Notes under the pieces: generated by a model | Seen by the model: only the letters and a program-made list of their open reading frames with translations | What the model was told of the DNA's origin: nothing | Databases searched by the model: none | In this document: positions 42,598-60,924 of the stretch, in pieces | Numbering within the stretch: position 1 is the stretch's first letter | How the letters are laid out: every line of letters starts with the position of its first letter | Assembly: GCA_963727625.1 (NCBI GenBank) | Contig: CAVSHR010000008.1 | Location: 345,944 to 409,943, forward strand | Direction: 5' to 3' | DNA from: an uncultured delta proteobacterium | Lineage (GTDB): Bacteria > Desulfobacterota > Binatia > UBA9968 | DNA length: 64,000 nucleotides | Made by a program: the position numbers and the translations under genes

Positions 42598-42603
42598 CGA
42601 TTC

Positions 42604-42909
42604 TCACCTCCTGTGCCGAAGGATCTGGTAAGCGGTCACGATAAAATTGTTCTCGGTGCCGCCGGGAGTAATGCCGAAACGAACCACGGCGACGATGGTA
42701 CTGTTGCCGGCGGGCAAATCTTCAAAGTCTCGGTAATAGAGGAACACGTCGGGACGGATCGAATCTTGAAATCTTCGGCCTCTCTGAATCGTCTCCAACA
42801 CCTGGCTTTCATAGCCCTGCATTTCCGGATGCTCTTCGCAGATGTGATTCCAGCGTTCATCGGTCAAATAAATCTCATGGCCCAGATGGTCTTTGGCGGT
42901 TTGCGGCAT
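42604..42909 (-). CDS. putative BECR/RelE-fold ribonuclease toxin
   Basis: IYLTDERWNHICEEHPEM...FIVTAY pattern, 101 aa, paired with DUF2283. Confidence 0.7.
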   Translation of the reverse strand: MPQTAKDHLGHEIYLTDERWNHICEEHPEMQGYESQVLETIQRGRRFQDSIRPDVFLYYRDFEDLPAGNSTIVAVVRFGITPGGTENNFIVTAYQILRHRR

Positions 42910-44968: not shown

Positions 44969-44996
44969 TCTATCTCCCTAAAGGCTTCCCTGATAA

Positions 44997-46292
44997 ATGA
45001 CGGGCACAAAGGAGATGGAGCTTTCAAGGGTCACCGTGGCTGTGCTTGCGGGCGGACTTGGCACGCGTTTGCGTTCCAGAGTTTCGGATCGTCCGAAGGT
45101 ATTAGCTGAGGTCGGGTCCCATCCTTTTCTTGCTTATTTGTTGGATCAGCTTGTAGCCGGCGGCTGCCGGACCGCTGTGCTGTGCACGGGATATCTAGGG
45201 GAGCAAGTCTCCCGCGCGTTTGGCGAAACCTATGGGCCCCTTCGCCTGGTGTATTCCCGAGAGCAGACGCCGTTGGGTACGGCAGGCGCCTTGAGGTTCG
45301 CGCTGCCGAACATCGAATCTGACCCAGTTCTCGTCATGAATGGAGATTCCTATTGCGACCTGGACATCCGTGCTTTTTGGAACTGGCATCGCCGGCGAGA
45401 AGTTGCGGCAAGCATCGCGCTGGCGCGCGTGGCACGAAGCGAACGGTACGGCCGGGTTAGGGTCGATGAAGATGCTCGGGTGACGGAGTTTGCCGAGAAG
45501 CAAAAAGGCGCGGGACCGGCTTGGATTAACGCCGGTGTTTATCTGCTTAGCCGGGCAGTCGTTCAATCCATCCCAGAGGCGACAATCGCTTCGTTGGAAA
45601 AGGACGTCTTTCCGCGCTGGGTGGACCAGGGCCTCTGTGGTTACAGGAGCCTCGCGCGTTTTATTGATATCGGCACGCCGGAAGATTTTGCCGCGGCGGA
45701 AAATTTCTTTTCGCGGCCAAACAAATCACAACGACGCCGTTATGTGGTGCTCGATCGGGACGGCACGATTATCGAAGAACGCGGGTATCTCGCCCAACCG
45801 GAACAAGTAACCTTGCTACCGGGAGCCGGAGCCGCCCTTCGCCAACTCCAGCGGATGGGATTCGGACTGGTGGTCGTTACCAACCAATCGGGTTTAGGGC
45901 GCGGCCTCTTCGATGAGCAGCAGTTGAAACGCATTCATGAGCGCCTGGAGCAATTGCTAGAGGGGCAGGGCGTTCGTTTAGGTGGTTTTTACGTTTGTCC
46001 GCACAAACCTGACGATGATTGCCTCTGTCGCAAGCCCAGACTCGGTCTCTTGCAAAAAGCTGCATTGGACCTGAACTTTAGCTTGGAAGAGAGCATTGTT
46101 ATCGGAGACAAACCTTGCGATATTGATATGGGTCGTTTGGCGGGAGCGAGGACCTTCCTGGTGCGTACAGGCTATGGCGGCCAATTTGAAAATGAAACGG
46201 CGGCTGATTTCGTGGTGGATGACCTAGCGGCTGCGGCAGAGTTTATTGGGCGTCTGTTGGAAACTGGCGGAGGACTCATTCATGGTCATTAG
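44997..46292 (+). CDS. fused heptose-1-P guanylyltransferase (HddC-like) and heptose bisphosphate phosphatase (GmhB-like)
   Basis: LAGGLGTRL, PLGTAGA, NGDS, FIDIGTPED; then DRDGT, TNQSG, CPH..DDDCLCRKP, IGDK. Confidence 0.92.
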   Translation: MTGTKEMELSRVTVAVLAGGLGTRLRSRVSDRPKVLAEVGSHPFLAYLLDQLVAGGCRTAVLCTGYLGEQVSRAFGETYGPLRLVYSREQTPLGTAGALRFALPNIESDPVLVMNGDSYCDLDIRAFWNWHRRREVAASIALARVARSERYGRVRVDEDARVTEFAEKQKGAGPAWINAGVYLLSRAVVQSIPEATIASLEKDVFPRWVDQGLCGYRSLARFIDIGTPEDFAAAENFFSRPNKSQRRRYVVLDRDGTIIEERGYLAQPEQVTLLPGAGAALRQLQRMGFGLVVVTNQSGLGRGLFDEQQLKRIHERLEQLLEGQGVRLGGFYVCPHKPDDDCLCRKPRLGLLQKAALDLNFSLEESIVIGDKPCDIDMGRLAGARTFLVRTGYGGQFENETAADFVVDDLAAAAEFIGRLLETGGGLIHGH

Positions 46293-47382
46293 TCGAACTC
46301 CATTTCGGATCTCGTTCTTTGGTGGCGGTACCGACTATCCCGTCTGGTATCGGGATCACGGCGGCACGGTACTAGCCACGACCATTGATAAATATTGCTA
46401 TCTCAGCTGCCGGTATCTGCCGCCATTTTTCGAACATCGAATTCGCCTGGTTTATTCGCGCATTGAAAACTGTCAGAACGTCGATGAAATCACCCACCCA
46501 GCGGCTCGCGAGGTGCTGCGCTTTTCGGGCATCGAGCGCGGCGTGGAGATACATCACGACGGCGACCTTCCGGCGCGCAGTGGCATGGGATCCAGCTCCT
46601 CGTTCACCGTTGGACTGCTGCACGCGCTTTACGCTCTCCAGGGACAAATGCCGAGTAAACGCCAACTGGCGTTGGAAAGCATTCGAATCGAGCAGGAATT
46701 AATCAAGGAAACTGTCGGCTCGCAAGATCAAATGTTGGCGGCCTTCGGGGGATTCAATCACGTCGTATTTGCGCCGACTGGCGAGATTTCAGTGCGACCC
46801 GTAACTGTCTCGGCCGATCGTTTGAAAGAGCTGAATTCGCATCTTATGCTTTTTTATTCGGGAATCGAACGTACGGCGTCGGATATTGCCGAAAGCTACA
46901 TTACGGATCTTAACGGGAAAAAGAGCCAGTTGCGGATCATGAAAGGTCTGGTGGAAGAAAGTCTTGCGGTCTTGAACGGCAGCCAGGATATTCGAGCGTT
47001 CGGCACATTGCTGCACGAGGCATGGCAGGCCAAGCGCGGTTTGAGCGCCCAGGTCTCTAATAGTCACATTGATCAGATTTATGAGCTGGCGATGGCGAAC
47101 GGCGCCCTCGGCGGCAAACTGCTCGGCGCCGGAGGCGGGGGGTTCATGCTCCTTTTTGTTCCGCCGGAGAGGCAAGAGCGAGTGAGAGAATGTCTCAAAA
47201 AGCTTATCTATGTGCCTTTCCGGTTCGAATTTTCCGGCAGCCAAGTTATTTATTTCGATCCGCGAGAGGAGTACTACACCGAAGAAATGGTCCGTGCTTC
47301 CCGTGATGGGGAGCTGAGGAGTGATGGCTCGATCGGGCCATTGGGTTGGGAGCCGGCTAAAACCAGCGACAGAGAGCTGTAA
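46282..47382 (+). CDS. hddA: D-glycero-alpha-D-manno-heptose-7-phosphate kinase (GHMP)
   Basis: TPFRISFFGGGTD, PARSGMGSSS, GSQDQ, GKLLGAGGGGF. Confidence 0.9.
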   Translation: MVISRTPFRISFFGGGTDYPVWYRDHGGTVLATTIDKYCYLSCRYLPPFFEHRIRLVYSRIENCQNVDEITHPAAREVLRFSGIERGVEIHHDGDLPARSGMGSSSSFTVGLLHALYALQGQMPSKRQLALESIRIEQELIKETVGSQDQMLAAFGGFNHVVFAPTGEISVRPVTVSADRLKELNSHLMLFYSGIERTASDIAESYITDLNGKKSQLRIMKGLVEESLAVLNGSQDIRAFGTLLHEAWQAKRGLSAQVSNSHIDQIYELAMANGALGGKLLGAGGGGFMLLFVPPERQERVRECLKKLIYVPFRFEFSGSQVIYFDPREEYYTEEMVRASRDGELRSDGSIGPLGWEPAKTSDREL

Positions 47383-47424
47383 GATTAGCCGCTGCCAGTT
47401 AACTTCAGATTGTTGTCGGTGAAC

Positions 47425-48387
47425 ATGGATAAAAATGCCAGAATCTACATAGCCGACGATGAAGGCCTTGTGGGAAATGCGATCCGGCTCGAGCTTCAAC
47501 GTGAGGGCTACACGAATCTTCTGGCAGGACCGAACGGTCCGAGATTGACGGATTCCGCTGAGGTCGATGATTTCTTCGCGCGTACCCAGCCGACATACGT
47601 CTTCTTGATCGGAGGAAAGACGGGCGGCATCAAAGCGAATCAAAATTACCCGGCGAGTCTGATGCGCGATAATTTGCTAGCAAATTGTCATGTTATCGAT
47701 AGTGCTCAGCGTCATCGTGTGCAAAAATTGCTCTATCTCGCCAGCGCCTGTGTCTATCCGAAGTTTTCCGACCAGCCGATGAAGGTAGAATATTTGACCA
47801 CGGGTAGGCTGGAGCCGACCAATGAACCATATGCCATCGCCAAGCTTGCCGGGCTGTTTCTGTGCCAAGCCTACCGCCAACAGTTTGGAAACCATTTGAT
47901 TACGGCGATTCCGGCCAACGTTTTTGGTCCAGGCGATAATTTCAACGTTGATGATGCCCACGTCATCGGCGCCCTCATGCGCCGGATGCACGACGCCAAA
48001 ATGCGTAGCGAGAAGCGTGTCGAGGTTTGGGGTAGCGGCACGCCGCGCCGCGAATTTATTTTTTCCCGGGATCTCGCCCGTGCTTGCCTGTTTCTAATGG
48101 ACGCTTGCGAAAGTGCCGAGCCCGTCAATATCGGGGTCGGATTCGACTGGTCGATCAAAGAGATCGCTGAGATGATCCGCGAAATCGTGGGGTATTGCGG
48201 CGAGTTAAGCTTTGATCGCACTAAACCGGACGGCATGCCGGCAAAGCTACTGGACTCCAGCCTCCTGGAGCAGCTGGGCTGGCAACCGCGCACGCCGATT
48301 AGCGAAGCTCTGGCGCTCACCTATGAATGGTTCCGGCAACACGAATCGCAAGGTAAAGGTATGGAAGATGCGCGAGCGTTTCTATAG
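47425..48387 (+). CDS. GDP-fucose synthase (Fcl/ColC)-like epimerase/reductase
   Basis: GGIKAN, CVYPK, LEPTNEPYAIAK, HVIGAL, WGSGTPRREF, KPDG. Confidence 0.9.
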   Translation: MDKNARIYIADDEGLVGNAIRLELQREGYTNLLAGPNGPRLTDSAEVDDFFARTQPTYVFLIGGKTGGIKANQNYPASLMRDNLLANCHVIDSAQRHRVQKLLYLASACVYPKFSDQPMKVEYLTTGRLEPTNEPYAIAKLAGLFLCQAYRQQFGNHLITAIPANVFGPGDNFNVDDAHVIGALMRRMHDAKMRSEKRVEVWGSGTPRREFIFSRDLARACLFLMDACESAEPVNIGVGFDWSIKEIAEMIREIVGYCGELSFDRTKPDGMPAKLLDSSLLEQLGWQPRTPISEALALTYEWFRQHESQGKGMEDARAFL

Positions 48388-49306
48388 GGCCCTGTACCGA
48401 ATCCGGCGAGTCGAAGAGGAGATTGCCGCCGTTTATCCGACGGACAAGATCAAGAGCCCCGTCCATCTTTCCATCGGCCAGGAGGCCGTCTCCGTCGGTG
48501 TCTGCGAAGCGCTCGCAAAGGACGACGTTGTTTTTGGCACCTACCGAAGCCACGCGCTCTATTTGGCCAAAGGCGGGGACCTGCGCAGGATGATCGCCGA
48601 GCTTTACGGCAAAGTCGACGGATGCGCCAAGGGCAAAGGCGGATCGATGCATTTGGTCGATATTGATGCCGGCGCCATGGGCGCATCGGCGGTGGTTGCC
48701 ACGACAATTCCACACGCTGCCGGCTACGCGTACGCGATGAAGCTCCAAGGGAGGCCTACCGTCGTCGTCAGTTTTTTCGGCGATGGTGCGGTTGATGAAG
48801 GCGTGTTTCACGAAACGATGAATTTTGCCGCGCTTAAAGCGCTGCCAATTATTTTTGTCTGCGAGAATAATTTTTACGCGATCCACACCCATCAGTTGCG
48901 CCGCCAATACCTCGGTAACATCTGTGATAAGGCGCGGTCCTACGGCATGACCGCCAAACAGATTCCCGACAACGATATATTCGCAATCCACGAAAACGTG
49001 AGTGCGGCAGTGACACGGTTGCGTAGCGGCGTGTCGGAACCGTGTTTTTTTGAATGCTTGACCTACCGGTTAAAGGAGCATGTCGGCCCCAATGATGACT
49101 ACCATTTGGGCTATCGGACGCGGGAAGAGGCGGAGCCGTGGATTAGAAACGATCCGATGACAAAGCTCGCGGCGCAGATCGAACCGACGCGGCGTAGGCA
49201 AATCGAAGCGGCGGTGAACGCCGAAATTCGCGACGCCTTTGATTTTGCCGAGGCCGGCGCTTTCCCGCCCGCGGAAGAACTCTATACTGACGTTGTCGAG
49301 GGCTAG
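48368..49306 (+). CDS. TPP-dependent E1 alpha-like subunit
   Basis: HLSIGQEA, GKGGSMH, GDGA...ENN TPP motif. Confidence 0.93.
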   Translation: MRERFYRALYRIRRVEEEIAAVYPTDKIKSPVHLSIGQEAVSVGVCEALAKDDVVFGTYRSHALYLAKGGDLRRMIAELYGKVDGCAKGKGGSMHLVDIDAGAMGASAVVATTIPHAAGYAYAMKLQGRPTVVVSFFGDGAVDEGVFHETMNFAALKALPIIFVCENNFYAIHTHQLRRQYLGNICDKARSYGMTAKQIPDNDIFAIHENVSAAVTRLRSGVSEPCFFECLTYRLKEHVGPNDDYHLGYRTREEAEPWIRNDPMTKLAAQIEPTRRRQIEAAVNAEIRDAFDFAEAGAFPPAEELYTDVVEG

Positions 49307-49353
49307 TGGGGTGTTTCGAAATCCATTGACAATCGACTCGGCACACTTCCCCC

Positions 49354-49395
49354 AGGGGGACAGTCCCCCTTCCGGAAAGGGGGCTGTCCCCTTTC
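49354..49395. repeat. REP-like palindrome, copy 3
   Basis: AGGGGGACAGTCCCCCTTCCGGAAAGGGGGCTGTCCCCTTTC. Confidence 0.85.
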
Positions 49396-49425
49396 TTCCA
49401 ATTTACAAAACCGGAAAAGAGATGA

Positions 49426-49496
49426 CTCGCGCAAAGACGCAAAGCACGCGAATTCGGAAAATATTCCTAACTTTGCGCCTTGGCGTCTTGGCGGGA
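49426..49496. repeat. CGCAAAG-type imperfect inverted repeat
   Basis: CGCAAAGACGCAAAG ... CTTTGCGCCTTGGCGTCTTGGCG. Confidence 0.7.
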
Positions 49497-49552
49497 TAAA
49501 TTTCCTTGCAGTCGTGTTGTCCAACGTTTCTGAGGTGAGTATCTAAAGTGAT

Positions 49553-50599
49553 ATGAAGCGCGAGCTTACCTACGTCGAAGCGATACGGGAGGCGACGGAT
49601 CAAGAGATGGAGCGCGATCCCTCGGTTCTCATCTTTGGTTTGGATGTCGACGATCCCAAAGCGATTCAGGGCACCACGCGCGGTTTGTTGGAAAAATTTG
49701 GTCCCGAGCGCGTCTTCGGCACGCCCTTGTCGGAGGACGCAATGACCGGCGTTGCGATCGGCCTTGCCCTCGCTGGCTTGCGGCCGATTCACGTCCACAT
49801 CCGCATGGATTTTCTCATGCTGGCGATGAACCAGCTGGTCAACATCGCCGCTAAAAGCCGGTATATGTATGGTGGCCAAGTGCAAGTCCCGATTGTGGTT
49901 CGCTCGATGATCGGGAAAAGTTGGGGCCAGGGCGCACAGCATTCCCAGGGGCTTTATTCGTTTTTTATGCATGTGCCGGGTCTTAAGGTCGTCGCGCCGA
50001 CCACGCCCTTCGATGCCAAGGGGTGTCTGGTCCAGGCGATTCGCGATAACGATCCGGTGATTTACGTCGAGCACCGCATTCTGCATTTTCAAAAGGGGCC
50101 GGTGCCGGAATCGCTCTACGAGTCTGCCCCCGGCAAAGCCCGCATTGCGGTGCCGGGTTCCGACGCTACTCTCGTCGGGATTTCGCATATGCAAATCGAG
50201 TGTTTGCGCGCGCAGCGTTACCTAGAGGCGATCGGCGTGCAAGCCGAGGTCATCGATCCGATTTGGTTGCAGCCGCTCGATATTGAGACGATCGCGGCGT
50301 CAGTGCGCAAAACCGGCCGCCTATGCGTTGTCGATAATGGCTGGATCACCTGCGGCGCCGGCGCCGAGATCGTTGCGGCGGTGTTGGAGCGGGTGCAGGA
50401 CACGCGCTCGATTCAAGTACGGCGCTTGGGTTTCGCTCCGGTGACTTGTCCGCCCGCGCCGACGCTTGAGAATCTCTACTACCCCAATGGCCGCACCATC
50501 GCCGCGGCGGTTCGCAAGCTCGTCACTGGCACCAAGGACGAGTGGATGCCTGAAGAACGCGCCGATCTTCGCGAGATCGAATTCAAGGGACCGTTTTAA
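49553..50599 (+). CDS. TPP-dependent E1 beta-like subunit
   Basis: TPLSE, GLRPI, GAQHSQ, PGLKVVAP, DPVIYVEH. Confidence 0.93.
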   Translation: MKRELTYVEAIREATDQEMERDPSVLIFGLDVDDPKAIQGTTRGLLEKFGPERVFGTPLSEDAMTGVAIGLALAGLRPIHVHIRMDFLMLAMNQLVNIAAKSRYMYGGQVQVPIVVRSMIGKSWGQGAQHSQGLYSFFMHVPGLKVVAPTTPFDAKGCLVQAIRDNDPVIYVEHRILHFQKGPVPESLYESAPGKARIAVPGSDATLVGISHMQIECLRAQRYLEAIGVQAEVIDPIWLQPLDIETIAASVRKTGRLCVVDNGWITCGAGAEIVAAVLERVQDTRSIQVRRLGFAPVTCPPAPTLENLYYPNGRTIAAAVRKLVTGTKDEWMPEERADLREIEFKGPF

Positions 50600-50644
50600 T
50601 TTATGGGTCTTCAGGTTTTCTTGTGAACCAGAGATCGGAAATAG

Positions 50645-50773
50645 CACCGCAGGGGCGCGGAGGGCGGAGTAAGGAGTTTTTGATTGATAAGTACTCCGGA
50701 CTCTGCGAACCCCGTGTCTCTGTGGTGAAAAAGAATCCGGATATCTCACCGCGGAGGCGCTGAGGGCGCTGAG
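50645..50773. repeat. CACCGCAGAG-type imperfect inverted repeats
   Basis: CACCGCAGGGGCGCGGAG ... CTCTGCGAACCCCGTGTCTCTGTGGTG, plus a second left arm CACCGCGGAGGCGCTGAG. Confidence 0.7.
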
Positions 50774-50914
50774 AAAAGCGTTTTATATTACAAAATAACC
50801 ACTCTTACGAGCGGTCTTCAGTATTTTGCTCCGACCTTTGCGCCCTTTGCAGGACATGCTTTTCGGGAGAAACTCCGGATTCGACGAAAGGTTGTTTATC
50901 TTTGGTTGATATTT

Positions 50915-52111
50915 ATGAGCGTGATTGATTTAGATTGGCCGCTGATGCGCAACAACATCACTCCTTCAGATCTCGAAGGCGTGATCCAATTTCTCAAACA
51001 GGAAGTGCCGATTCTTACGCAATCGACCCAGGTGAAATCCTTCGAGCAAGAATGGTCGCGCTGGCTTGGCGTAAAGCATAGCGTGTTCGTCAATTCCGGT
51101 TCGTCGGCGAATTTGCTCACGATGACGGCGTTACGGGAAACTTTCGGTGCGGGCGAGATCATTGTGCCCACGCTCACCTGGGTTTCGGACATCGCTTCGG
51201 TGCTCCAGTGCGGCTTTACGCCGGTATTTGTCGACATCAATCCCAAAACTCTGGGCATGGATAGCGAACAGGTAGTAAAGAAAATTACGCCGCAGACCAA
51301 AGCAGTCTTTTTGACTCATGTGCTCGGCTTTAACGCCTTGGACGAGCGGTTGCTAGCGGAGCTGGAAGCCCGCAAGGTGCCGCTGATCGAGGATGTCTGC
51401 GAGTCCCATGGCGCAACCTTCAAGGGGCGGAAACTCGGCACCTTCGGACTGGCGTCGAATTTTTCCTTCTACTACGCGCATCACATGAGTACGATCGAAG
51501 GGGGCGTGATTTCGACCGATGACTCACGGCTCTATGAAATACTACGCATGTTGCGCTCGCACGGCATGGTGCGCGAGGCGGAGTCGGCCGATTTGAAACA
51601 GTCCTATATCGATCGGCACCCAGACTTGAATCCGGATTTCATCTTCGCTTTTCCCGCTTACAACGTGCGCAGCACGGAGATCAACGCGGTGATCGGGCGT
51701 TCTCAGCTAAAACGCCTCGATGAGAATAACCGCGAGCGCACCGCGAACCTTAAGTTGTTTCTGGATGATTTGGATCCGCAAAAGTATCAGACCGATTTTG
51801 TCACCGAGGGCAGTTGCAATTACGCCTTTACGCTGATTTTGAAACATGCCGACGGGGTACTGCGCGATAACGTCATGCAGGCGTTACGGCAGGCTCGCGT
51901 GGAGTTTCGCCGCGGCACCTCCGGGGGCGGAAACCAGCTGCGCCAGCCCTATCTGAAAAGGCTATTGGGCGAGCGAGAATTTGACAAGTATCCAAACGTA
52001 AATCACGTTCATTTCCATGGGTTTTATATCGGCAATTTTCCTGGTCTGGAGCGGGAGAAGATTCTCGCTTTGACGAAGATGCTGAACGCGCTGCCTGCCG
52101 GCTCCGCGTAA
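50915..52111 (+). CDS. PLP-dependent DegT-family enzyme, ColD-like C3-dehydratase
   Basis: NSGSSANL, EDVCESHGA, SFYYAHHMSTIEGG (His at the Schiff-base Lys position); no Fe-S Cys motif after HG. Confidence 0.85.
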   Translation: MSVIDLDWPLMRNNITPSDLEGVIQFLKQEVPILTQSTQVKSFEQEWSRWLGVKHSVFVNSGSSANLLTMTALRETFGAGEIIVPTLTWVSDIASVLQCGFTPVFVDINPKTLGMDSEQVVKKITPQTKAVFLTHVLGFNALDERLLAELEARKVPLIEDVCESHGATFKGRKLGTFGLASNFSFYYAHHMSTIEGGVISTDDSRLYEILRMLRSHGMVREAESADLKQSYIDRHPDLNPDFIFAFPAYNVRSTEINAVIGRSQLKRLDENNRERTANLKLFLDDLDPQKYQTDFVTEGSCNYAFTLILKHADGVLRDNVMQALRQARVEFRRGTSGGGNQLRQPYLKRLLGEREFDKYPNVNHVHFHGFYIGNFPGLEREKILALTKMLNALPAGSA

Positions 52112-52164
52112 CCCGCGCGCTCGCGGATCAGTCCGCGAGAAATGCTCTGGCGAAAGGTCGATTG

Positions 52165-53706
52165 ATGAGCAGAAAATTAGACCTCCTCTTGGTTCACCCG
52201 GGTAGCAGAAGGCAAATCTATCAGTCGCTGGGCGATAATCTTGCGGCGGTGGAGTCGCCGGTGTGGGCCGGCTTGATCGCGACGTTTGTTCGCAAGCGCG
52301 GCATGGCCGTGGAAATTCTCGACGGCGAAGCCGACGAGCTCGGTCCCGAGGAGACGGCGGCGCGAGTCGTCGAAGCCTCACCCAAATTGACGGCGGTCAT
52401 TGTCTATGGCCACCAGCCTTCCGCGTCGACGCAGAATATGACGGCTGCCGGCGCTATCTGCACCGCCATCAAACAGGCCGACCCCAGCCGGAAAGTGATC
52501 CTGGTCGGCGGCCATGTGGCGGCGTTGCCGGAACGCACGTTGCGCGAAGAAGATGCGGATTTCACCTGCAACGGCGAGGGGCCGTATACGATCCTGGAGC
52601 TTTTGCAAGCGCTCCAGTCGACGGCTCCCGACTACAGCCGGGTGCGCGGGCTCTGCTACCGCCAGGGTGACGGCGTTATGCAGAATCCGCCTTCGCCTCT
52701 AGTGAAGGACCCCGATCAGGAAATGCCGGAGATGGCGTGGGATTTGTTGCCGATGAAAAAATATCGCGCCCACAACTGGCACTGTTTCGACGACTTGCAG
52801 CGCCAGCCCTATGCCTCCTTTTACACCACCTTTGGCTGTCCCTATCACTGTAGTTTTTGTTGCATCCAGGCGCCGTTTAAGACCGGCGAGAAACTCGCGG
52901 GTTTGAAAGAAACCGTCAACAGCTATCGCTTCTGGAGCCCGCAGACCATCATTGCGCAGATTGACAAATTGGTTGTCCAGTATGGGGTGCGCAACATCAA
53001 AATCGCCGACGAAATGTTTGTGCTCAATCCGCGGCACGTGCTCGGAATCTGCGACGCGATCATCGAGCGCGGCTACAATCTGAACATCTGGGCGTATGCG
53101 CGGGTCGATACGGTGCGAGACGGCATGTTGGAAAAGCTCAAACGCGCCGGCGTCAATTGGCTCGCCTTCGGCATCGAGGCGGCCAGCGAGCGCGTGCGCG
53201 ATAGTGTGGACAAGGGATTCGGACAAGAAGAGATTTTTCGGACGATCAAGAACGTTAGAAGCGCCGGCATCAATGTCATCGGCAACTATATATTCGGCTT
53301 GCCTGAAGATAATCTGGAGAGCATGCAGGCGACGCTGGACCTCGCCGTTGAATTGAATTGTGAATTTGCCAATTTCTATTCTGCGATGGCGTATCCCGGC
53401 TCGCAGCTTTACAATCTAGCGCTCAAAGAGGGCTGGCCGCTGCCGGGAAAATGGTCGGGCTATTCGCAGCACGCCGTTGATACTCTACCCTTGCCGACAA
53501 AATACCTGTCCGGGGGCGAAGTGCTGCGCTTCAGGGATCATGCGTTTCAAGTGTACTTTAGCAATCAAAGCTATCTCGATATGGTCACGCAGAAGTTCGG
53601 CCGGGAAACGGCGGAACACATTCGGCAAATGGCGTCTCATAATCTGGAGAGAAAACATATTCCATCGCAGGTCTCCGAGCCGAACCGTGTCGTGGGGCAG
53701 CAATAA
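52165..53706 (+). CDS. cobalamin-dependent radical SAM enzyme
   Basis: B12-binding N-terminus (GGHV, GEG), GCPYHCSFC, ADE, GIEA, IFGLP. Confidence 0.92.
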   Translation: MSRKLDLLLVHPGSRRQIYQSLGDNLAAVESPVWAGLIATFVRKRGMAVEILDGEADELGPEETAARVVEASPKLTAVIVYGHQPSASTQNMTAAGAICTAIKQADPSRKVILVGGHVAALPERTLREEDADFTCNGEGPYTILELLQALQSTAPDYSRVRGLCYRQGDGVMQNPPSPLVKDPDQEMPEMAWDLLPMKKYRAHNWHCFDDLQRQPYASFYTTFGCPYHCSFCCIQAPFKTGEKLAGLKETVNSYRFWSPQTIIAQIDKLVVQYGVRNIKIADEMFVLNPRHVLGICDAIIERGYNLNIWAYARVDTVRDGMLEKLKRAGVNWLAFGIEAASERVRDSVDKGFGQEEIFRTIKNVRSAGINVIGNYIFGLPEDNLESMQATLDLAVELNCEFANFYSAMAYPGSQLYNLALKEGWPLPGKWSGYSQHAVDTLPLPTKYLSGGEVLRFRDHAFQVYFSNQSYLDMVTQKFGRETAEHIRQMASHNLERKHIPSQVSEPNRVVGQQ

Positions 53707-53741
53707 GTCGCTTCAGGTGAAAGCGATCGAAGGATCGACCA

Positions 53742-54326
53742 ATGGCGTCGCAACCGATGTTGGCAAAGCGGAGACTTGCCTGCGAGAACAGCCGATTCTC
53801 GGTTTACTTTGACGATCTGACGCGCGACGGGGAACCTTGCGCGCAGGATTATCTGGTCGTCGCGCCCAAGCAGGTCTCGGGCGATCTTGTTACGGGAGTC
53901 GCGATACTTCCGGTGTGTGAGGATAAGATTGGCCTGCTTAAAGTTTATCGGCATGCCATCCAAGGCGATTCCTGGGAGATTCCACGGGGGTTCATAGAGG
54001 AAGGCGAAAGCGATCTGACTTCGGCCTTGCGCGAGCTGGAGGAAGAAACCGGTCTTACTTGCGATCCGGACGAAATGAAACTGCTTGGGATGATTACCCC
54101 CGACGCGGGCATCTTAGCTGCGCGGGTCCAGATCTATGTCGCTTTGCGCTGCAGCCGGACCCGAGGGTTCGCGCCTTCGGAGTTAGGCCACCACGAGTTT
54201 CGCCTTTTTGCGCGCGAAGAGATCGAGGATTTGATATCGAGATCCGAGATTCAAGATCCTTGCACGCTGGTGGCGTATTTTAGGCATTCATTCCGTCCAG
54301 AAAGTTTCACCTCGGTTGTGACGTGA
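53742..54326 (+). CDS. NUDIX hydrolase (ADP-ribose/NDP-sugar pyrophosphatase-like)
   Basis: EIPRGFIEEGE....ALRELEEETG Nudix box. Confidence 0.9.
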   Translation: MASQPMLAKRRLACENSRFSVYFDDLTRDGEPCAQDYLVVAPKQVSGDLVTGVAILPVCEDKIGLLKVYRHAIQGDSWEIPRGFIEEGESDLTSALRELEEETGLTCDPDEMKLLGMITPDAGILAARVQIYVALRCSRTRGFAPSELGHHEFRLFAREEIEDLISRSEIQDPCTLVAYFRHSFRPESFTSVVT

Positions 54327-54404: not shown

Positions 54405-55205
54405 TTGCTACGCATAATTGCTTTTTTAGGAAAACTGTATCGTTACCGCGGTGTAATTTGGGCGATGGCCAAGCACGATTTGGCGTCCCGATATGTCGGC
54501 ACAATCGCCGGGCCTCTATGGGCCATCTTTCATCCGCTTGCGACGGTCGTCATCTACTGGTTTGTGTTCTCGGTTGGCTTCAAGGCGAAGGGTCCTTCAG
54601 GAATGCCTTTTGTCCTTTATTTTGTGAGCGGCCTTGTCCCGTGGCTCCTTTTTAACAACACCATCATGACGAGCGTGTCGGCGGTCACTGGTCAGCCGCA
54701 CCTGGTAAAGAAGATTGTTTTTCCAACCGAAGTTTTGCCTATTGTCAATTTGGTTTCGGAGACTTTTACGCACATCGTCATGCTGTTCATTCTCCTGGTG
54801 GTGATCTGGTATTATGGCTATCATCTAGATCCCTTCATGCTCCAGACCGCGTACTACTTTATCGCTCTTTGTTTCTTCGTGATCGGCTTGTCGTGGCTGC
54901 TAAGCTCGCTTCAGGTTTTTCATCGCGACGTGGGTCAAGGTATGGCCGTGATATTGAATTTTTGGTTTTGGCTGACGCCAGTCGTCTGGACCGAAGAGGT
55001 GGTGCCGGAAAAATACCGCTGGTTTTTGCAGCTCAATCCTCTCGCCTATGTGGTTGAGGGATATCGCAAGTCCCTGCTGCACCAACGGCCGGCATGGGGG
55101 GATGTCAACGGCGGGGCGTGTTATTGGCTGGCGGCGGCCGTGATATTTGTCGCCGGCGCCTATGTGTTCAGGCGTCTCAAGCCCGAATTCGCAGACGTGT
55201 TGTGA
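54405..55205 (+). CDS. wzm: ABC-2 polysaccharide exporter permease
   Basis: RYVGT..G.LW, GLVPW, LVKKIVFP, TPVVW, LNPL, EFADVL. Confidence 0.95.
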   Translation: MLRIIAFLGKLYRYRGVIWAMAKHDLASRYVGTIAGPLWAIFHPLATVVIYWFVFSVGFKAKGPSGMPFVLYFVSGLVPWLLFNNTIMTSVSAVTGQPHLVKKIVFPTEVLPIVNLVSETFTHIVMLFILLVVIWYYGYHLDPFMLQTAYYFIALCFFVIGLSWLLSSLQVFHRDVGQGMAVILNFWFWLTPVVWTEEVVPEKYRWFLQLNPLAYVVEGYRKSLLHQRPAWGDVNGGACYWLAAAVIFVAGAYVFRRLKPEFADVL

Positions 55206-55224: not shown

Positions 55225-56598
55225 GTGACAGAAGAAATCGCCATTTCGGTCCGGGATGTCTCCAAGAAGTATCGTCTCTTCGGCTCTCCGCAGGAAAGAC
55301 TTAAGGAAGCCTTGCACCCGTTTCGTAAACGGTATCACAAAGAATTCTGGGCGTTAAAAGGGGTTAGCTTCGATGTGCCGAAGGGTCAGACTGTAGGAAT
55401 CCTCGGGCGTAACGGTTCCGGCAAGTCGACCCTCCTACAAATTATCGCCGGCATTATGCAGCCGACGAGCGGGGAAGTGACTGTTAATGGCCGAGTGTCG
55501 GCTTTACTCGAGCTCGGCACAGGGTTCAATCCTGAGTTCACCGGCCGGGAGAATGTGATTTTTCAAGCCCAGGTTGTAGGCCTGCCCCGAGAAGAAATCA
55601 ATCGTCGCCTTCCGGAGATTGAAGCATTCGCCGACATCGGGGAATTCTTCGATCAACCCGTGAAAACTTATTCCTCCGGTATGTTTGTGCGCGTGGCTTT
55701 CGCCGTAGCCGTTAGCGTTGACCCGGAGATACTTATCGTTGACGAAGCGCTGGCTGTGGGGGATGCTAAGTTTCAGCATAAATGCTTCCAGACATTTCGG
55801 CAATTTCTCGACGCGGGTAAAACTTTGCTTTTAGTTTCGCACGATATGGGTACGTTACTGCGGCTCTGTAGCGTGGGTGTAGTCCTAGAGGGGGGGGCGG
55901 TCCATTCCTACGGTACTATCTCGCAGGCGACCAACAGCTACCAAGCACTGCTATTCGGCCACTATTCCGGAGCGATTACTGACGATCTTACAAGTGAGCG
56001 GACTGACGGTGATGCTCGAAGCAAGGATGACAATACGACGAGAACGAATTCTGACGGAAAATTGTTGGGCGATAGGAGTTTGGTCTCGCTAATGCGCAAT
56101 GGAATCGATGATCATTGCCCACAACGACCTTCATATAACAAAAACGAAACTAGGCTCGGCGATGGGCGCGTAAAAATACTCGATTACGTCATTGTCTCAA
56201 ATGATCGCTTGGAGCCCGCCGTCATTTCCTTTGATTCAATAATTTCGATTTATTTGAAGATTCACTTCTTTTTTGATGTGAAAAACGTATCTCTCGGATT
56301 TGCGATTACTTCTAAAGATTGTGTTTCCGTATATGGTACCAATTTATTTCTCCAGGGCAGACCCTTGTTGAGCGGTCGGGCCGGCGAAACGTTATTGGCC
56401 AGATTTGCCTGGAATGCGACATTGACAGGCGGTGACTATTTCCTGAACCTTGGCTGCAATCAAATTACGCCGCAACAGGACGTTTTTCTGGACGTTCGAC
56501 GGTCGGTAGCGCACCTTAGATTTGCGGATACGAGTTGGTGCACGGGGTTTCTTGCTGCTGAGGCCAAGCTAGATGAGTTGGATCGCTTCATTGCCTGA
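55225..56598 (+). CDS. wzt: polysaccharide ABC ATPase with C-terminal Wzt_C domain
   Basis: GRNGSGKST, YSSGM, DEALAVGD..FQ.KC, ~200-aa C-terminal extension (R.GDG..KI...GDYFL). Confidence 0.95.
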   Translation: MTEEIAISVRDVSKKYRLFGSPQERLKEALHPFRKRYHKEFWALKGVSFDVPKGQTVGILGRNGSGKSTLLQIIAGIMQPTSGEVTVNGRVSALLELGTGFNPEFTGRENVIFQAQVVGLPREEINRRLPEIEAFADIGEFFDQPVKTYSSGMFVRVAFAVAVSVDPEILIVDEALAVGDAKFQHKCFQTFRQFLDAGKTLLLVSHDMGTLLRLCSVGVVLEGGAVHSYGTISQATNSYQALLFGHYSGAITDDLTSERTDGDARSKDDNTTRTNSDGKLLGDRSLVSLMRNGIDDHCPQRPSYNKNETRLGDGRVKILDYVIVSNDRLEPAVISFDSIISIYLKIHFFFDVKNVSLGFAITSKDCVSVYGTNLFLQGRPLLSGRAGETLLARFAWNATLTGGDYFLNLGCNQITPQQDVFLDVRRSVAHLRFADTSWCTGFLAAEAKLDELDRFIA

Positions 56599-56732
56599 GG
56601 ACGTCTTGTCTCCGAACACTTTAAAAGAAGCATCGATTGTTTTGAGTGAGGATGAATGTGGTATGCTTAATACCATAAGCGGCAGCAACGCTTTGCCCGT
56701 TTAAACCTAGTAAGGAAAAAAGTGTAACGAAC

Positions 56733-58280
56733 GTGGTGGTTCATAAAGGACAATACCTGGTCGTTGGCCCCCCTCGGGGCGGATTCACCTTGCTGCTTTC
56801 TGTTCTGGCGATTCTCTATCGGGATCGGGGATTGCGCAAACCGAGGGCGCAGGAAATCGCTGATCCGTACATCACTATTGCTGGAGAATATTTGGATGCC
56901 GCCATTCGCGACTGGTTTCACGCGCAAGTTGGCGAGGACCGCCTTTTTTACAATAAGGAATTTTCGATCCTGGTGGGAGGACCAAAGTGGATTTCACCGA
57001 CTGACGCGGACTCTGTTTGTATCCGAAAGTATGTGGGCATCAAAGGATCAGGTGACTTTACGTTTATCCTGCATCTTCCCCGCTGGGTCCTCGCCTTCGA
57101 CGAATTAATTCATTCGCATAGCCATCCTGCACGCTGGGTAAGCATGGCGGATTATTCCGGCTATCTGAAATTCGCGTCGATACGAAACCCCATCGACATC
57201 ATTCATTCTTCAGTGTTTTCGATCAATGCATTAGCGAGTGAATACATCCAGCGCGAGTTGAAGTTGGACGAACACCAGATACGGCGCGAACTTGCGTTGA
57301 ACAAATTAACCAATCCGGGATTCATCTCGGGCTTGATAATTTTCCTAAAAAGATATCTCGATGAGTTCATTCCGGTAGCTGACAGGTACGATTACCTCAT
57401 GCGCTGGGAAGATTTGATTCAATCTCCCATAGACGAGATTCAGCGCATTGCCGAAGCTACCGGAGAGCCCGTGGACGCCCCATATGCGGGACGCATATGG
57501 GCTGAATTGGAACATCGAAACCTTACGCGCTACCACAAGCACAGTTTCCGGCGCGGTGTGCTGGACGATTGGCAGTTAAATATCACCAACACGCACCTGA
57601 AACTTTTCGAAGAGGCCGGTATTGCGAGGTATCTCGAGAAATTCGGCTATTCGTCGATCCAATACTTTGATGAAAATGACTATACGCCCGATCAGAAACT
57701 GATCGAGGAGCACATCCGTCGTGGGCAACCGTACGTTGAAAATCTGGATCGAGATGTCATTACTTTCGCGTTCAACAAGACTAACTTCATTCCTACCCCG
57801 CAGTTCAAGTTCAAGCACTATCCTCGCCAGGGCGCCATCGAAATTGAAAAATCGACCTTGCAGAACGAGGACTTAGCGACGGGATTCATGGCCCGGATGG
57901 GTGTCGCTTCGGATACGGTTTATCGTTATCTGCTGGAGTTGCATCCCGCGGCCCAAGAGGCGGCGTTGGGGGATGACGCTCGACTGGCAGACTTGCGAGT
58001 TCGCTATGGGCAAGTATTCTCGGAGTGGCTGGGCGATCGTTGTCGATCGCGGTTCGACGCGCTGATAAAGCTCGATGATCCGGTGATGCCACCGCGACTT
58101 GTTGGAAGCGCCGCCGGATACAACATTGTTTATTTTGGAGAGCGTCATTATTCGGTCCCGCAGTCGCTCGGTCCAATGGATCTGGGAAAACTCGATATCT
58201 CTGCATTGCCCTCCACGATTCTCCTCACTCGTACATACGAGGAAGCGCTGCAAGCCATTGCGGAGGTGACCACGGCGTGA
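56733..58280 (+). CDS. atypical sulfotransferase-fold protein with a C-terminal repeat module
   Basis: GPPRGGFT loop, IRNPIDIIHS, RWEDL, FRRG...DW. Confidence 0.7.
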   Translation: MVVHKGQYLVVGPPRGGFTLLLSVLAILYRDRGLRKPRAQEIADPYITIAGEYLDAAIRDWFHAQVGEDRLFYNKEFSILVGGPKWISPTDADSVCIRKYVGIKGSGDFTFILHLPRWVLAFDELIHSHSHPARWVSMADYSGYLKFASIRNPIDIIHSSVFSINALASEYIQRELKLDEHQIRRELALNKLTNPGFISGLIIFLKRYLDEFIPVADRYDYLMRWEDLIQSPIDEIQRIAEATGEPVDAPYAGRIWAELEHRNLTRYHKHSFRRGVLDDWQLNITNTHLKLFEEAGIARYLEKFGYSSIQYFDENDYTPDQKLIEEHIRRGQPYVENLDRDVITFAFNKTNFIPTPQFKFKHYPRQGAIEIEKSTLQNEDLATGFMARMGVASDTVYRYLLELHPAAQEAALGDDARLADLRVRYGQVFSEWLGDRCRSRFDALIKLDDPVMPPRLVGSAAGYNIVYFGERHYSVPQSLGPMDLGKLDISALPSTILLTRTYEEALQAIAEVTTA

Positions 58281-60328
58281 AACGGACTTTAGCGTTCTTT
58301 GAGCCCGACATGCACGGTTCTATGGAGGAGCCGCTCAAATACGCCTTCGAAAACGGTGCCCGCAAAGCTGCGTTGATAAGCACGGAGGGTTGTGACAGAG
58401 CCTCGGTGACCGCCCTGCAGAAGACGGGGTTCTCGTGCGTTGAAAAGCAACTGACGACCTTCCAGAAGTCGGATATCGCCGATGCTGACGTTGTTCTCGT
58501 ATCTAATGGTAGTTGCACGGAAGTTTCACGGGCGCTCCACGCCTGCATTGACTCGGACATCACAGTGATTGCTCCGGTTACCGAGCACCACTACAGTAGA
58601 CGCACGGTGTTCCTGATGGCCATTCCCAAGGCCGGAACCCACATGGTCATCCGGCTTCTTGACCTGATGGGGTTGGGGCGATCGTTAGATCGCGCACCCC
58701 GGGTGGGCACATGGTGCACTCCGGTCGGATATGCATATCACGCCCCTTGCAGGGAGTTGATGGCCGACGACTGGTTCGATCCGATCGGTCGCCAGTTATT
58801 ATTCCGATCGCCAGCGATTTTCGTCTATCGCAATCCGCTCGATATCGTTGTTTCTGAATTGGACTGGTTCGTGAGGCCTGAGAATGCCTTCTCCGGGTAC
58901 CTAAACTGCTGCGCAGACGAGTCCGAACAATTGGACCGGCTGATTGCAGACGACACAGTCATGGGAAATATCCGCGATCGCATTAACAGATATGCCGGTT
59001 GGATGCACTTCAGCAATGTTATTCCTGTAAGCTACGAAGAGCTAGTGGGAAGTCGCGGTGGCGGAAGCGATTCCGAACAACTCGACGCGATCTGGGCTCT
59101 GCAATTGAAGCTCCATATCCCCGGCAGCCCGAAAGAATATGGGGCACGTATTTATGACCCAACCAGCGCCACGTTTTCTCAGGGACGGATTAGGCGCCAT
59201 ATGGGGCGTTTTAAAGAGTGCCATTTTAAGTTGGTTGATTCCTTGCCACAAGATTTCATGCAAGCCTTGGGATATTTTCGCGGCTCAAAGATATCTTCGA
59301 AGGTGGCGGTCTTACGTCATCGGCCCCTGACGGTCAAGGAACTTTCTCCGGACAGTCTCTACACGCCGCGACTGGTGCGCGAGGGCATAAAGGGCTGGAA
59401 CATCATTGAGTCAGCCGGAATGTATTTTCCGGTGAGGCTGGGTGAGAACATTATGTCAGCGGTAGAAGCCGAGAAGATCTTGTCTACAAAAGAGGGGTTT
59501 GTGACATTGCGTGATGCCATAGACGCTGTCATTTTTGGCCAAGGAACAATCCCTGTTGAGACGCAACCGCATGAAGCCACTGGGACAGAGTTGGTTGTCG
59601 AAGGCTATTTGGGTTTTAATGTGGTCCGTCACGGTGGTTGCTGGTATGGATTTGATCAGGCGACGGGGCCGCTTAATATCGACAGCCTGGGAGAGTCCGC
59701 CGTCGAGCAGATGAAAAAAATCGGAACATGTGTAAGTGGGGTCAGCTCCGCTGACGTCAAAACGGAAATTCTCCGCCTTGTTATTCAAAAAAGGCAGCGC
59801 TGCGACTCGGAACTGTCAGCCCAGGTGGTTGAAGGTCTGGCCGGCATGAAAAGCCACGTGGTAGAGACGCAGGAATTTCTGTCGAAACACATTGCCCCCG
59901 CGCCGGAATTTAGCAAGGAGCCACGATTGCTGGAAGAAAACTGTCACGGCTTCAATCTAATGGCCTATGATGGCAAGGTCTGGGCGGCGGCAATAGCCAT
60001 CGGTCCGGTAGATTTGCATGATGCCGAAGCGCGTGAGCGACTATTGGCCAAGGGTCAATTGCTGGAAGCGATGACTTTGGATGGTGCGCGGGCAGCGATC
60101 CATACGCAAATCCTCGAGCAACGTGTGCGTGCGATGGAAACGAGGCTGGATGAAATAAATTCCCTCATGTCGGAACTTAAGTTGAGTAAGCAGCTGGCAC
60201 AGGACACGGCCCGCGAACTGGCTGGGTTGCGCGGCCACCTGTTTGAGATTTCAGAGAGCCTGGAGAAATTACGCGAAGAATCTTGGCAAGCCATCAAGAA
60301 TAATAAGCTTCGAAAAACGGAGTCGTGA
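58277..60328 (+). CDS. sulfotransferase-fold protein with three repeat modules and a C-terminal coiled coil
   Basis: IPKAGTH, YRNPLDIVVS, VSYEEL, TF..GRI; heptad-rich tail; GTGA overlap with the upstream gene. Confidence 0.75.
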   Translation: MKRTLAFFEPDMHGSMEEPLKYAFENGARKAALISTEGCDRASVTALQKTGFSCVEKQLTTFQKSDIADADVVLVSNGSCTEVSRALHACIDSDITVIAPVTEHHYSRRTVFLMAIPKAGTHMVIRLLDLMGLGRSLDRAPRVGTWCTPVGYAYHAPCRELMADDWFDPIGRQLLFRSPAIFVYRNPLDIVVSELDWFVRPENAFSGYLNCCADESEQLDRLIADDTVMGNIRDRINRYAGWMHFSNVIPVSYEELVGSRGGGSDSEQLDAIWALQLKLHIPGSPKEYGARIYDPTSATFSQGRIRRHMGRFKECHFKLVDSLPQDFMQALGYFRGSKISSKVAVLRHRPLTVKELSPDSLYTPRLVREGIKGWNIIESAGMYFPVRLGENIMSAVEAEKILSTKEGFVTLRDAIDAVIFGQGTIPVETQPHEATGTELVVEGYLGFNVVRHGGCWYGFDQATGPLNIDSLGESAVEQMKKIGTCVSGVSSADVKTEILRLVIQKRQRCDSELSAQVVEGLAGMKSHVVETQEFLSKHIAPAPEFSKEPRLLEENCHGFNLMAYDGKVWAAAIAIGPVDLHDAEARERLLAKGQLLEAMTLDGARAAIHTQILEQRVRAMETRLDEINSLMSELKLSKQLAQDTARELAGLRGHLFEISESLEKLREESWQAIKNNKLRKTES

Positions 60329-60471: not shown

Positions 60472-60924
60472 ATGACGAACAAAAAGACGTACGACCTTTT
60501 TATAACTCACGCCTGGCGGTACCATCAGGACTGGACCAAAATCTGCGATCTGCTGGACAATTCACCGGGACTGGCATGGCGGAACTTCAGCCTTCCCTGG
60601 CATGATCCCGCTATGAGTCCAAACTCCGCAGTGGGTGGTGCTTTTATCAGGAATTTTCTCGAGACCCAGATAATTCCCGTGCAAGGCGTGATCTTGTTAG
60701 CCGGTGTCTATGCGATCAAGAGCGCCCAGGGTTGGCTGGACTTGGAAATCGAGTTTGCCCGTAAGCACAACAAACCCGTGGTCGGGATTCCCCCATTGAA
60801 CGAAACCGTAGTGCCCGACGAGATCAGGTCAAAGTGCGATGGTAGCGCGGGCTGGCATGCCGAGGAGATCATAGTTGCGCTGGATGAAGCGCTAGCCCTT
60901 CCCAGATACGCGCGGGCGATATAA
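60472..60924 (+). CDS. TIR-like domain protein (DUF1863/ThsB-like)
   Basis: YDLFITHAW, VILLAGVYA, WLDLEIEFA (catalytic Glu position), KPVVGI. Confidence 0.85.
   Translation: MTNKKTYDLFITHAWRYHQDWTKICDLLDNSPGLAWRNFSLPWHDPAMSPNSAVGGAFIRNFLETQIIPVQGVILLAGVYAIKSAQGWLDLEIEFARKHNKPVVGIPPLNETVVPDEIRSKCDGSAGWHAEEIIVALDEALALPRYARAI

What the first reader, a model, noticed from the sequence alone, without database searches (positions are those of the whole stretch)
55225..60328. Possible sulfate-capped chain termination: sulfotransferase plus coiled coil next to Wzt with a C-terminal domain
Seen: wzt has a C-terminal extension and is followed by two coupled sulfotransferase-fold genes; the second ends in a ~70-aa heptad-rich helix (about 60110-60325, LEQRVRAMETRLDEINSLMSELKL...). 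Known: in E. coli O9a, WbdD sits after wzm-wzt, caps the chain (phosphate/methyl), uses a coiled coil as a length ruler, and Wzt_C reads the cap. Inference: here the cap may be sulfate, or phosphate given the P-loop-related fold.
Basis: inference. Interest (0 to 1): 0.7.

Follow-up and report, generated by a model that had tools for sequence, protein, structure and literature searches.

The report
Sulfotransferase pair beside glycan exporter
Two linked sulfate-adding enzymes sit next to a surface-sugar export pump and probably sulfate an unusual sugar, but the helical stalk that suggested a chain-length ruler is missing in many relatives, so a sulfate "stop-and-export" cap is possible but unproven; both enzymes also carry a small unnamed repeat that recurs on many enzymes of this pathway.

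Summary
Observation confirmed. Wzt has an O9a-like Wzt_C, followed by two coupled sulfotransferases (ST1, ST2). ST2 ends in an 82-residue helix that models as a coiled-coil trimer (0.65 vs best control 0.00).

Phosphate is not supported: PAPS motifs are conserved, there is no Walker A, APS kinase lies in 15 of 80 related loci, and some ST2 relatives are fused to it.

The WbdD-like ruler is only partly supported:
- ST1+ST2 travel as a unit (adjacent in 54 of 66; 12 fusions) with a branched-sugar cassette, also beside a Wzx flippase.
- Only 10 of 73 complete ST2 have a coiled coil (6 of 11 beside an O9a-like Wzt_C).
- A complete Methylomonas cluster has Wzt_C and the pair but no coiled-coil protein.
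- The window's ST2 lacks about 58 codons, including the basic tail of its closest relatives.

Best reading: sulfation of a specific sugar, with an optional stalk (0.5); sulfate cap with ruler 0.3. The scan noted sulfate-cap candidates before on other DNA, but not these proteins.

The parts
44030..54326 (+). Nucleotide-sugar cassette: NAD epimerase/dehydratase, HddC-like nucleotidyltransferase fused to GmhB-like phosphatase, HddA-like kinase, Fcl-like reductase, ThDP enzyme alpha and beta, RfbH-like PLP enzyme, B12 radical SAM, NUDIX
   Evidence: Pfam/NCBIfam best matches, nearly all below the equivalog cut-offs
54405..55205 (+). wzm, ABC-2 membrane subunit
   Evidence: PF01061 72 bits
55225..56598 (+). 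wzt, NBD plus C-terminal carbohydrate-binding domain
   Evidence: PF00005, PF14524
56143..56550 (+). Wzt_C domain (residues 307-442)
   Evidence: PF14524 77 bits; PDB 2R5O E 2e-13
56733..58280 (+). ST1: sulfotransferase domain (2-308) with beta insertion, helical domain, one repeat module; no coiled coil
   Evidence: AF2 pLDDT 94.8; Foldseek and VIA-align to SULTs; motifs
58086..58277 (+). Repeat module of ST1 (residues 452-515)
58277..60328 (+). ST2: Rossmann-like N domain, sulfotransferase, three repeat modules, two long helices
   Evidence: AF2 pLDDT 91.1, pTM 0.67
58598..59326 (+). ST2 sulfotransferase domain (about residues 108-350): IPKAGTH loop 116-122, His155, YRNPLD..S 184-193
59360..59542 (+). 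ST2 repeat module 1 (residues 362-422)
59579..59887 (+). ST2 repeat module 2 (435-505) running into long helix 491-537
59915..60112 (+). ST2 repeat module 3 (547-612)
60077..60322 (+). C-terminal coiled-coil helix (601-682; heptads 610-672); about 58 codons shorter than in L002/L003 and lacking their basic tail
60472..60924 (+). TIR-like (ThsB_TIR) small protein, a recurring member of the cassette
   Evidence: PF08937 22.3 bits
61069..64000 (+). Large B12 radical SAM protein with a repeat module (63325-63516), cut by the contig end
   Evidence: 91% identical to the 1145-aa protein of L002

Best explanation
ST1 and ST2 are an obligate pair of PAPS-dependent sulfotransferases in a mobile cassette that makes an unusual sugar and puts it into a lipid-linked surface glycan.

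Shown computationally: the fold, the PAPS motifs, the pairing, co-location with PAPS supply, and the coiled coil.

Inferred: (1) the cassette makes a GDP-activated, heptose-derived, probably deoxy and C-branched sugar (HddA/HddC/GmhB, RfbH-like enzyme, ThDP alpha/beta, reductase, B12 radical SAMs); (2) the two STs sulfate it, or its neighbour, at two positions on the cytoplasmic side; (3) Wzm/Wzt exports the product here, with Wzt_C probably binding the distal, possibly sulfated end; (4) the ST2 coiled coil is a lineage-specific oligomerising stalk of variable length, not an essential length ruler; (5) the ~62-aa repeat module is a shared tag, binding either the glycan or partner enzymes, that gathers the pathway's enzymes.
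For: ST1 lies directly upstream of, or fused to, ST2 in 54 of 66 loci where the upstream gene is visible. 12 of 307 fetched proteins are ST1-ST2 fusions, one in reverse order. In 18 loci with at least 7 kb on both sides: ST1 15, a sugar-cassette gene 14, wzt 11. L043 has the pair with a Wzx flippase, APS kinase and a CysQ-like gene. A coiled coil is present in 10 of 73 complete ST2 and needs at least 6 changes on the tree. The M. rivi cluster (ST2 72% identical over the core) has Wzt_C (70.7 bits) and no coiled-coil protein. APS kinase in 15 of 80 loci; ST2-APS kinase fusions P0067, P0068, P0084. The window genome has cysD/cysNC. Repeat-unit sulfation in an ABC-exported polysaccharide is known (PMC11766843, passages).
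Against: Where ST2 has a coiled coil it mostly sits beside an O9a-like Wzt_C (6 of 11 such loci vs 4 of the other 62, many with short flanks and related by descent). The clade members without wzt nearby (L019, L020) have the shortest tails. Many close relatives show the full WbdD layout of catalytic domain, coil and basic hydrophobic tail. In the M. rivi cluster no methyl, kinase or Kdo terminator was recognised either, so the STs remain the best candidates for a mark that Wzt_C reads. My coiled-coil score is crude and under-calls (L008 and P0028 have heptad-like repeats scored 0). No glycan structure is known.
Confidence: 0.5

Rival explanations
1. WbdD-like terminator. ST2, helped by ST1, sulfates the non-reducing end; its coiled coil, lengthened or shortened between strains, sets chain length; Wzt_C exports only sulfate-capped chains. 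Coil-less relatives would make short chains.
For: Position right after wzm-wzt. Wzt_C is closest to the O9a CBM, with R20 and D133 invariant in 15 of 15 aligned domains and D-x-R-R in most. Trimer model 0.65 vs 0.00; WbdD is a trimer through its C-terminal helix (PMC3482155, passages). Coil length in close relatives runs from 0 to 184 residues, often followed by a basic hydrophobic tail. No methyl/kinase terminator in view.
Against: No coil in 63 of 73 complete ST2, nor anywhere in the complete M. rivi cluster. The pair is also used with Wzx. Two STs are more than one cap needs. The window allele lacks the tail that would anchor a ruler. Only three single-GT2-type genes and no clear polymerase in M. 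rivi. Methyltransf_24 genes sit between wzt and ST1 in several relatives and carry the coil in L054, L057 and L062.
Confidence: 0.3
2. Sulfation is a transient activation step. One or both enzymes sulfate a nucleotide-sugar or glycan intermediate to make a leaving group for elimination or ring closure, so the final glycan need carry no sulfate.
For: The pair tracks the sugar cassette (radical SAM, ThDP, PLP enzymes) at least as closely as the exporter. ST1 has an atypical loop, P-R-x-G-F (F in 47 of 52). Fold matches include retinol dehydratase, LGS1 and the olefin-synthase ST. An Aeromonas wzt-adjacent ST gene has no sulfate found in its O-antigen (PMC4483657, passages).
Against: Those fold matches are no better than ordinary SULTs. 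Membrane-type tails and the shared module point to a lipid-linked glycan acceptor. No direct evidence.
Confidence: 0.1
3. The two proteins are P-loop-related kinases that add a phosphate cap.
For: Distant fold kinship only: NMP-kinase-like chains at Z 7.3 or lower for ST1.
Against: No GxxxxGK[ST] in either protein. PK-x-G-T-H in 102 of 102 (T in 99) and Y-R-x-P-x-D...S in 105 of 105 ST2 rows; R151 in 58 of 59 ST1 rows. SULTs score Z 13-14. APS kinase neighbours and fusions.
Confidence: 0.02

Closest known systems
WbdD of E. coli O9a/O8 and K. pneumoniae O3/O5 with Wzm-Wzt(CBM)
   Same: Follows wzm-wzt; CBM-bearing Wzt (2R5O match); N-terminal catalytic domain, then an oligomerising coiled coil; a basic hydrophobic tail in relatives (layout as described in PMC11231755 and PMC3482155, passages read).
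   Different: Sulfotransferase instead of kinase/methyltransferase; an obligate second enzyme (ST1); repeat modules between enzyme and coil; coil short (about 70 aa) and often absent; tail lost in this allele; the pair is also used without an ABC exporter nearby; no polymerase identified.
K. pneumoniae O12 WbbB, O4 ORF7 (GT137), O7 ORF6 terminators
   Same: ABC export with a Wzt CBM and a coiled-coil protein; O7 ORF6 also has an extra CBM-like domain before the coil (PMC11231755, passages).
   Different: Their caps are Kdo or methyl-phosphate and were shown biochemically; 'sulf' occurs 0 times in that paper's main text.
Sulfated capsular polysaccharides of Cobetia marina KMM 1449 and Vibrio sp. 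KMM 8419
   Same: ABC exporter, PAPS synthesis, CysQ and sulfotransferase genes in one cluster (PMC11766843, PMC11641403, passages).
   Different: Kps-type exporter; sulfate on each repeat unit (Rha2S in Cobetia); no Wzt CBM or ST1/ST2-type pair seen in the passages read.
Acyl-branched sugar pathways (yersiniose YerE/YerF, erwiniose, caryophyllose)
   Same: A ThDP enzyme plus reductase acting on a 3,6-dideoxy-4-keto nucleotide sugar (PMC9306805, first of three parts read).
   Different: Here GDP-heptose-type genes, a split alpha/beta ThDP enzyme, B12 radical SAMs and sulfotransferases; the product is unknown.
Cytosolic SULT / Pfam Sulfotransfer_1
   Same: Fold, 5'-PSB, 3'-PB, His position and the C-terminal F-x-K-G-x-x-G motif.
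   Different: 11-18% identity; extra insertion and helical domain (ST1), Rossmann-like N domain (ST2), repeat modules.

Membership tests
PAPS-dependent sulfotransferases | Sulfotransferase fold | tested here: met
   VIA-align Z 13.8 to SULTs for both; all of the top 22 rows (ST1) and top 16 rows (ST2) are sulfotransferase-family chains
PAPS-dependent sulfotransferases | 5'-phosphosulfate-binding loop (P-K/R-x-G-T) | tested here: met
   ST2 IPKAGTH, K in 102 of 102; ST1 P-R-G-G-F-T is a variant, R in 49 of 52
PAPS-dependent sulfotransferases | 3'-phosphate-binding R...S motif and conserved His before it | tested here: met
   ST2 R185 and S193 in 105 of 105, H155 in 103 of 103; ST1 R151 in 58 of 59, H129 in 58 of 59; ST1 RNP...S aligns to SULT. 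Catalytic role of the His is inferred
Pfam Sulfotransfer_1 (PF00685) | Gathering score of 22 bits | tested here: not met
   16.6 and 20.3 bits for the window proteins; many relatives pass
PAPS-dependent sulfotransferases | Sulfuryl transfer from PAPS | not testable with these tools
   needs an assay
WbdD-type terminator / molecular ruler | Cognate Wzt carries a CBM | tested here: met
   PF14524 77 bits; 2R5O E 2e-13
WbdD-type terminator / molecular ruler | Catalytic domain N-terminal to an oligomeric coiled coil | tested here: met
   (models only)
WbdD-type terminator / molecular ruler | C-terminal membrane-binding amphipathic helix after the coil | tested here: not met
   window ST2 lacks about 58 codons incl. 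the tail of L002/L003; many relatives have such a tail
WbdD-type terminator / molecular ruler | Coiled coil kept wherever the CBM-bearing exporter is | tested here: inconclusive
   6 of 11 loci with O9a-like Wzt_C; none in the complete M. rivi cluster; crude scorer
WbdD-type terminator / molecular ruler | A polymerase partner in the locus | tested here: inconclusive
   no GT in the visible operon; contig ends; relatives' GT2 genes not found in this assembly at E 1e-3
WbdD-type terminator / molecular ruler | Modification is terminal, stops growth and is required for export | not testable with these tools
   needs glycan structure and mutants
P-loop kinases | Walker A GxxxxGK[ST] | tested here: not met
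   no match in either protein

The most novel reading that the evidence does not exclude
In this clade ST2 is a sulfate-capping terminator whose reach is tuned by adding repeat-module/helix segments and heptads. The unnamed ~62-residue module is a new glycan-binding or docking domain that tags sulfotransferases, glycosyltransferases, radical SAM enzymes, methyltransferases and even one Wzt, assembling a line that builds, sulfates and exports a glycan ending in a branched heptose-derived sugar.
Probability: 0.25. Interest if true: 0.8.

Novelty: new variant of a known kind. Interest (0 to 1): 0.5.

Why it matters
A sulfate cap would add a new chemistry to the methyl, phospho-methyl and Kdo caps shown for ABC-exported glycans. 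This family also offers natural ruler variants (0-184 coil residues on near-identical enzymes) for testing. Even without a cap, it defines an uncharacterised two-enzyme sulfation unit and a sugar cassette that moves between phyla and exporters. It also defines a small repeat domain without a Pfam or PDB match, shared by many enzymes of one pathway. A cultured carrier (Methylomonas rivi WSC-6, coil-less) makes the glycan chemistry directly testable.

Tried and rejected
Phosphate/kinase reading: rejected.

Naming the module: no Pfam family matched more than 2 of 81 members at E up to 1; best PDB sequence match E 0.68; two Atlas searches gave no usable hit. The module was not folded alone, so its fold was barely tested and I do not call it a new fold.

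Rest of the locus: the window end is the contig end, no overlapping contig was found, and relatives' GT2 and Methyltransf_24 genes had no tblastn hit at E 1e-3 in this assembly. Six Methyltransf_24 matches lie elsewhere in the genome, none on C8.

Kin survey: ST2 found in 0 of 400 other genomes sampled from the phylum; the genome-contig scan with a single protein found 1 locus.

Sequencing runs: no RNA holder listed; two DNA runs with small shares hold only relatives and do not cover the ST2 tail usefully, so the 58-codon loss could not be checked against reads.

Profile comparison of ST1 vs ST2 was an artefact of fusion proteins in the alignment and was discarded. The careful tree did not finish; the quick IQ-TREE tree was used. 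L027 was dropped from the ST2 table because its ST2 frame lost out in my ORF selection.

Papers not held: Mann, Kimber and Whitfield 2019, PMC6791312, PMC4850311, PMC4650267, PMC2148323, PMC7397119. PMC13721041, PMC12595478 and PMC9445017 (passages) gave nothing on sulfate caps. No supplements were read.
Full report
SETTING. The window is the last 64 kb of contig C8 of a 6.6-Mb, 15-contig genome. From 44030 on, one + strand run of genes encodes an epimerase/dehydratase, an HddC-GmhB-like fusion, an HddA-like kinase, an Fcl-like reductase, ThDP alpha and beta subunits, an RfbH-like PLP enzyme, a B12 radical SAM, a NUDIX, Wzm, Wzt, ST1, ST2, a TIR-like protein and a second B12 radical SAM cut by the contig end. 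No glycosyltransferase is visible in this run, and relatives' GT2 genes were not found elsewhere in the assembly, so the locus is incomplete. ST2 was found in none of 400 other genomes sampled from the phylum, while relatives carry labels such as Methylomonas, Nitrospira, Chloroflexi, Omnitrophica and Binatia. I infer a mobile cassette.

OBSERVATION. It is confirmed. Wzt has Wzt_C (77 bits), and its only solved relative by sequence is 2R5O (E 2e-13), recalled as the O9a CBM. ST1 and ST2 overlap by 4 nt. AlphaFold2 models (pLDDT 94.8 and 91.1) match cytosolic SULTs best (Z 13.8 each). ST2 ends in one helix, residues 601-682, with hydrophobic a/d positions in 7 of 8 and 6 of 9; 10 of 1000 shuffles reach a like score on my own crude heptad scale. 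Three copies of residues 545-683 form an in-register bundle over residues 600-676: score 0.65, best control 0.00, runs agreeing in at least 95% of contacts, partner pLDDT at least 83. The mark was met by 21 of 30 solved pairs and 0 of 23 single chains, on a two-copy calibration. This supports self-association; it does not fix the oligomer number.

SULFATE, NOT PHOSPHATE. ST2 has P-K-x-G-T-H (K in 102 of 102 rows), His155 (103 of 103) and Y-R-x-P-x-D...S (105 of 105). ST1 has P-R-x-G-F (R in 49 of 52), H-S-H and R-N-P. Neither has a Walker A. APS kinase lies in 15 of 80 related loci, with CysD or CysQ-like genes in L029, L031 and L043, and is fused to ST2 in P0067, P0068 and P0084. The window's genome has cysD and cysNC on another contig.

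THE PAIR IS THE CONSERVED UNIT. ST1 is directly upstream of or fused to ST2 in 54 of 66 loci with a visible upstream gene; 12 of 307 fetched proteins are fusions. Among 18 loci with at least 7 kb on both sides, 15 have ST1, 14 a sugar-cassette gene, 11 a wzt and 7 none (some loci are near-duplicates, and wzt may lie farther away). L043 has the pair with a Wzx flippase, a pathway for which no cap-reading CBM is known (established knowledge).

THE COILED COIL IS OPTIONAL. It is found in 10 of 73 complete ST2 (8 truncated rows set aside, L027 dropped), 9 of them in the 21-row clade of the window, and needs at least 6 changes on a quick tree. Beside an O9a-like Wzt_C it is present in 6 of 11. Against: the whole 63-kb M. 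rivi contig shows the cluster with Wzt_C, ST1, a 512-aa ST2, three GT2-type genes and no coiled-coil protein in it. In L054, L057 and L062 a methyltransferase carries module plus coil upstream of a coil-less ST2. The window's ST2 is 59 residues shorter than its closest relatives (L002, L003): the missing stretch is flanked in L002 by a 6-base repeat 168 bp apart and holds the last heptads and the tail. WbdD is described as using such a C-terminal amphipathic helix for membrane association (PMC11231755, passages). Whether this loss is biological or an assembly error could not be checked.

THE UNNOTICED MODULE. ST1 residues 450-513 hit, as its top two non-self matches among 21,778 genome ORFs, the radical SAM protein (E 0.00035) and ST2 (E 0.033). 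A profile built from the ST1-search hits finds exactly three proteins in the genome: ST1 (1 copy), ST2 (3) and the radical SAM (1). The consensus is about P-x-L-V-x-x-Y-x-G-Y-N-I-V-x-Y-x-G-x-Y-Y-x-V-P-Q-x-L-G-P-V-D-L, then a short strand and a helix; the models show a three-stranded meander. It occurs in 222 of 307 fetched proteins (a set biased by how it was fetched), 47 of them without an ST domain, in tandem arrays of up to 11 with a 62-64 residue period. Carriers include GT2, GT2-GT4, methyltransferase, radical SAM, sulfatase, acyltransferase and adenylation proteins, and one Wzt. It has no Pfam, PDB-sequence or Atlas match, but its fold was not searched alone. The long helices of ST2 grow directly out of the last helix of modules 2 and 3. 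I infer a glycan-binding or docking tag; conserved N, P, Q, G, D and aromatic residues fit either.

MECHANISM. Most likely (0.5) the cassette makes a heptose-derived deoxy, branched sugar, by analogy with YerE/YerF-type chemistry (PMC9306805, part 1 of 3 read). ST1 and ST2 sulfate it on a lipid-linked glycan, Wzm/Wzt exports it, and the coil is an optional stalk. Sulfate may still be what Wzt_C reads, since M. rivi shows no other recognisable terminator. A full sulfate-cap-plus-ruler system gets 0.3, transient activating sulfation 0.1 and phosphate 0.02; the remainder is for readings not considered.

KNOWN VERSUS NEW. It works partly like WbdD but fails one defining feature in this allele (membrane tail) and leaves others open, so I do not file it as a WbdD-type terminator. 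Repeat-unit sulfation with ABC export is in print. Four searches aimed at sulfotransferases with Wzt, O-antigen or chain termination showed no demonstrated sulfate cap in the open library, judged from listings and passages of a few papers. The 2019 census of terminator chemistries (Mann, Kimber, Whitfield) was not held; I recall, unverified, that it predicts further chemistries, possibly sulfation. This scan has noted sulfotransferase-coil-Wzt_C candidates in at least 6 other genomes (unchecked AI notes, not used as support); sequence look-ups for ST1 and ST2 found none.

VERDICT. A real, uncharacterised sulfation unit in an ABC-linked glycan locus, a new variant of a known kind. The cap-and-ruler reading is plausible but less well supported here than the single window suggests. 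Interest 0.5.

Noticed in passing
G000:C8:263723-276382 (L090): A second ABC-glycan locus in the same genome also has Wzt_C directly followed by a sulfotransferase gene (267 aa, PF13469 55 bits, no coiled coil), with wzt apparently in two frames.
   Followed up: partly
window 60472-60924: A TIR-like (ThsB_TIR) gene is a recurring member of this glycan cassette, between ST2 or GT2 and the large radical SAM, in the window and 13 related loci; its role in glycan synthesis is unexplained.
   Followed up: partly
window 25270-25995: A lone sulfotransferase (PF13469 64 bits) just after the ribosomal protein/rpoA cluster.
   Followed up: partly
window 42250-42909: Two small coupled ORFs (115 and 101 aa) just upstream of the locus with no Pfam match at E 1e-4; they look to me like a toxin-antitoxin-type pair (recalled resemblance only).
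   Followed up: no
L036, L039, L044, L046, L050, L052, L060, L077: A distant subgroup follows ST2 with a class II aldolase-SDR fusion and an MtnA-like isomerase, and L019 has a nucleoside phosphorylase; possibly salvage of radical-SAM 5'-deoxyadenosine or supply of a carbon chain for the sugar.
   Followed up: no
L039, L046, L061, L077: Two different Wzt-like genes flank one wzm, one with a long N-terminal extension and one with a C-terminal GT2-like region.
   Followed up: no
P0182, P0199, P0212, P0240 (protein ids): Proteins with 8-11 tandem copies of the module, some between a GT2 and a GT4 domain; good material for solving the module's structure.
   Followed up: partly
L054, L057, L062: Methyltransf_24 + module + ~110-residue coiled coil upstream of a coil-less ST2: a candidate methyl-type terminator in the same cassette family.
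   Followed up: partly
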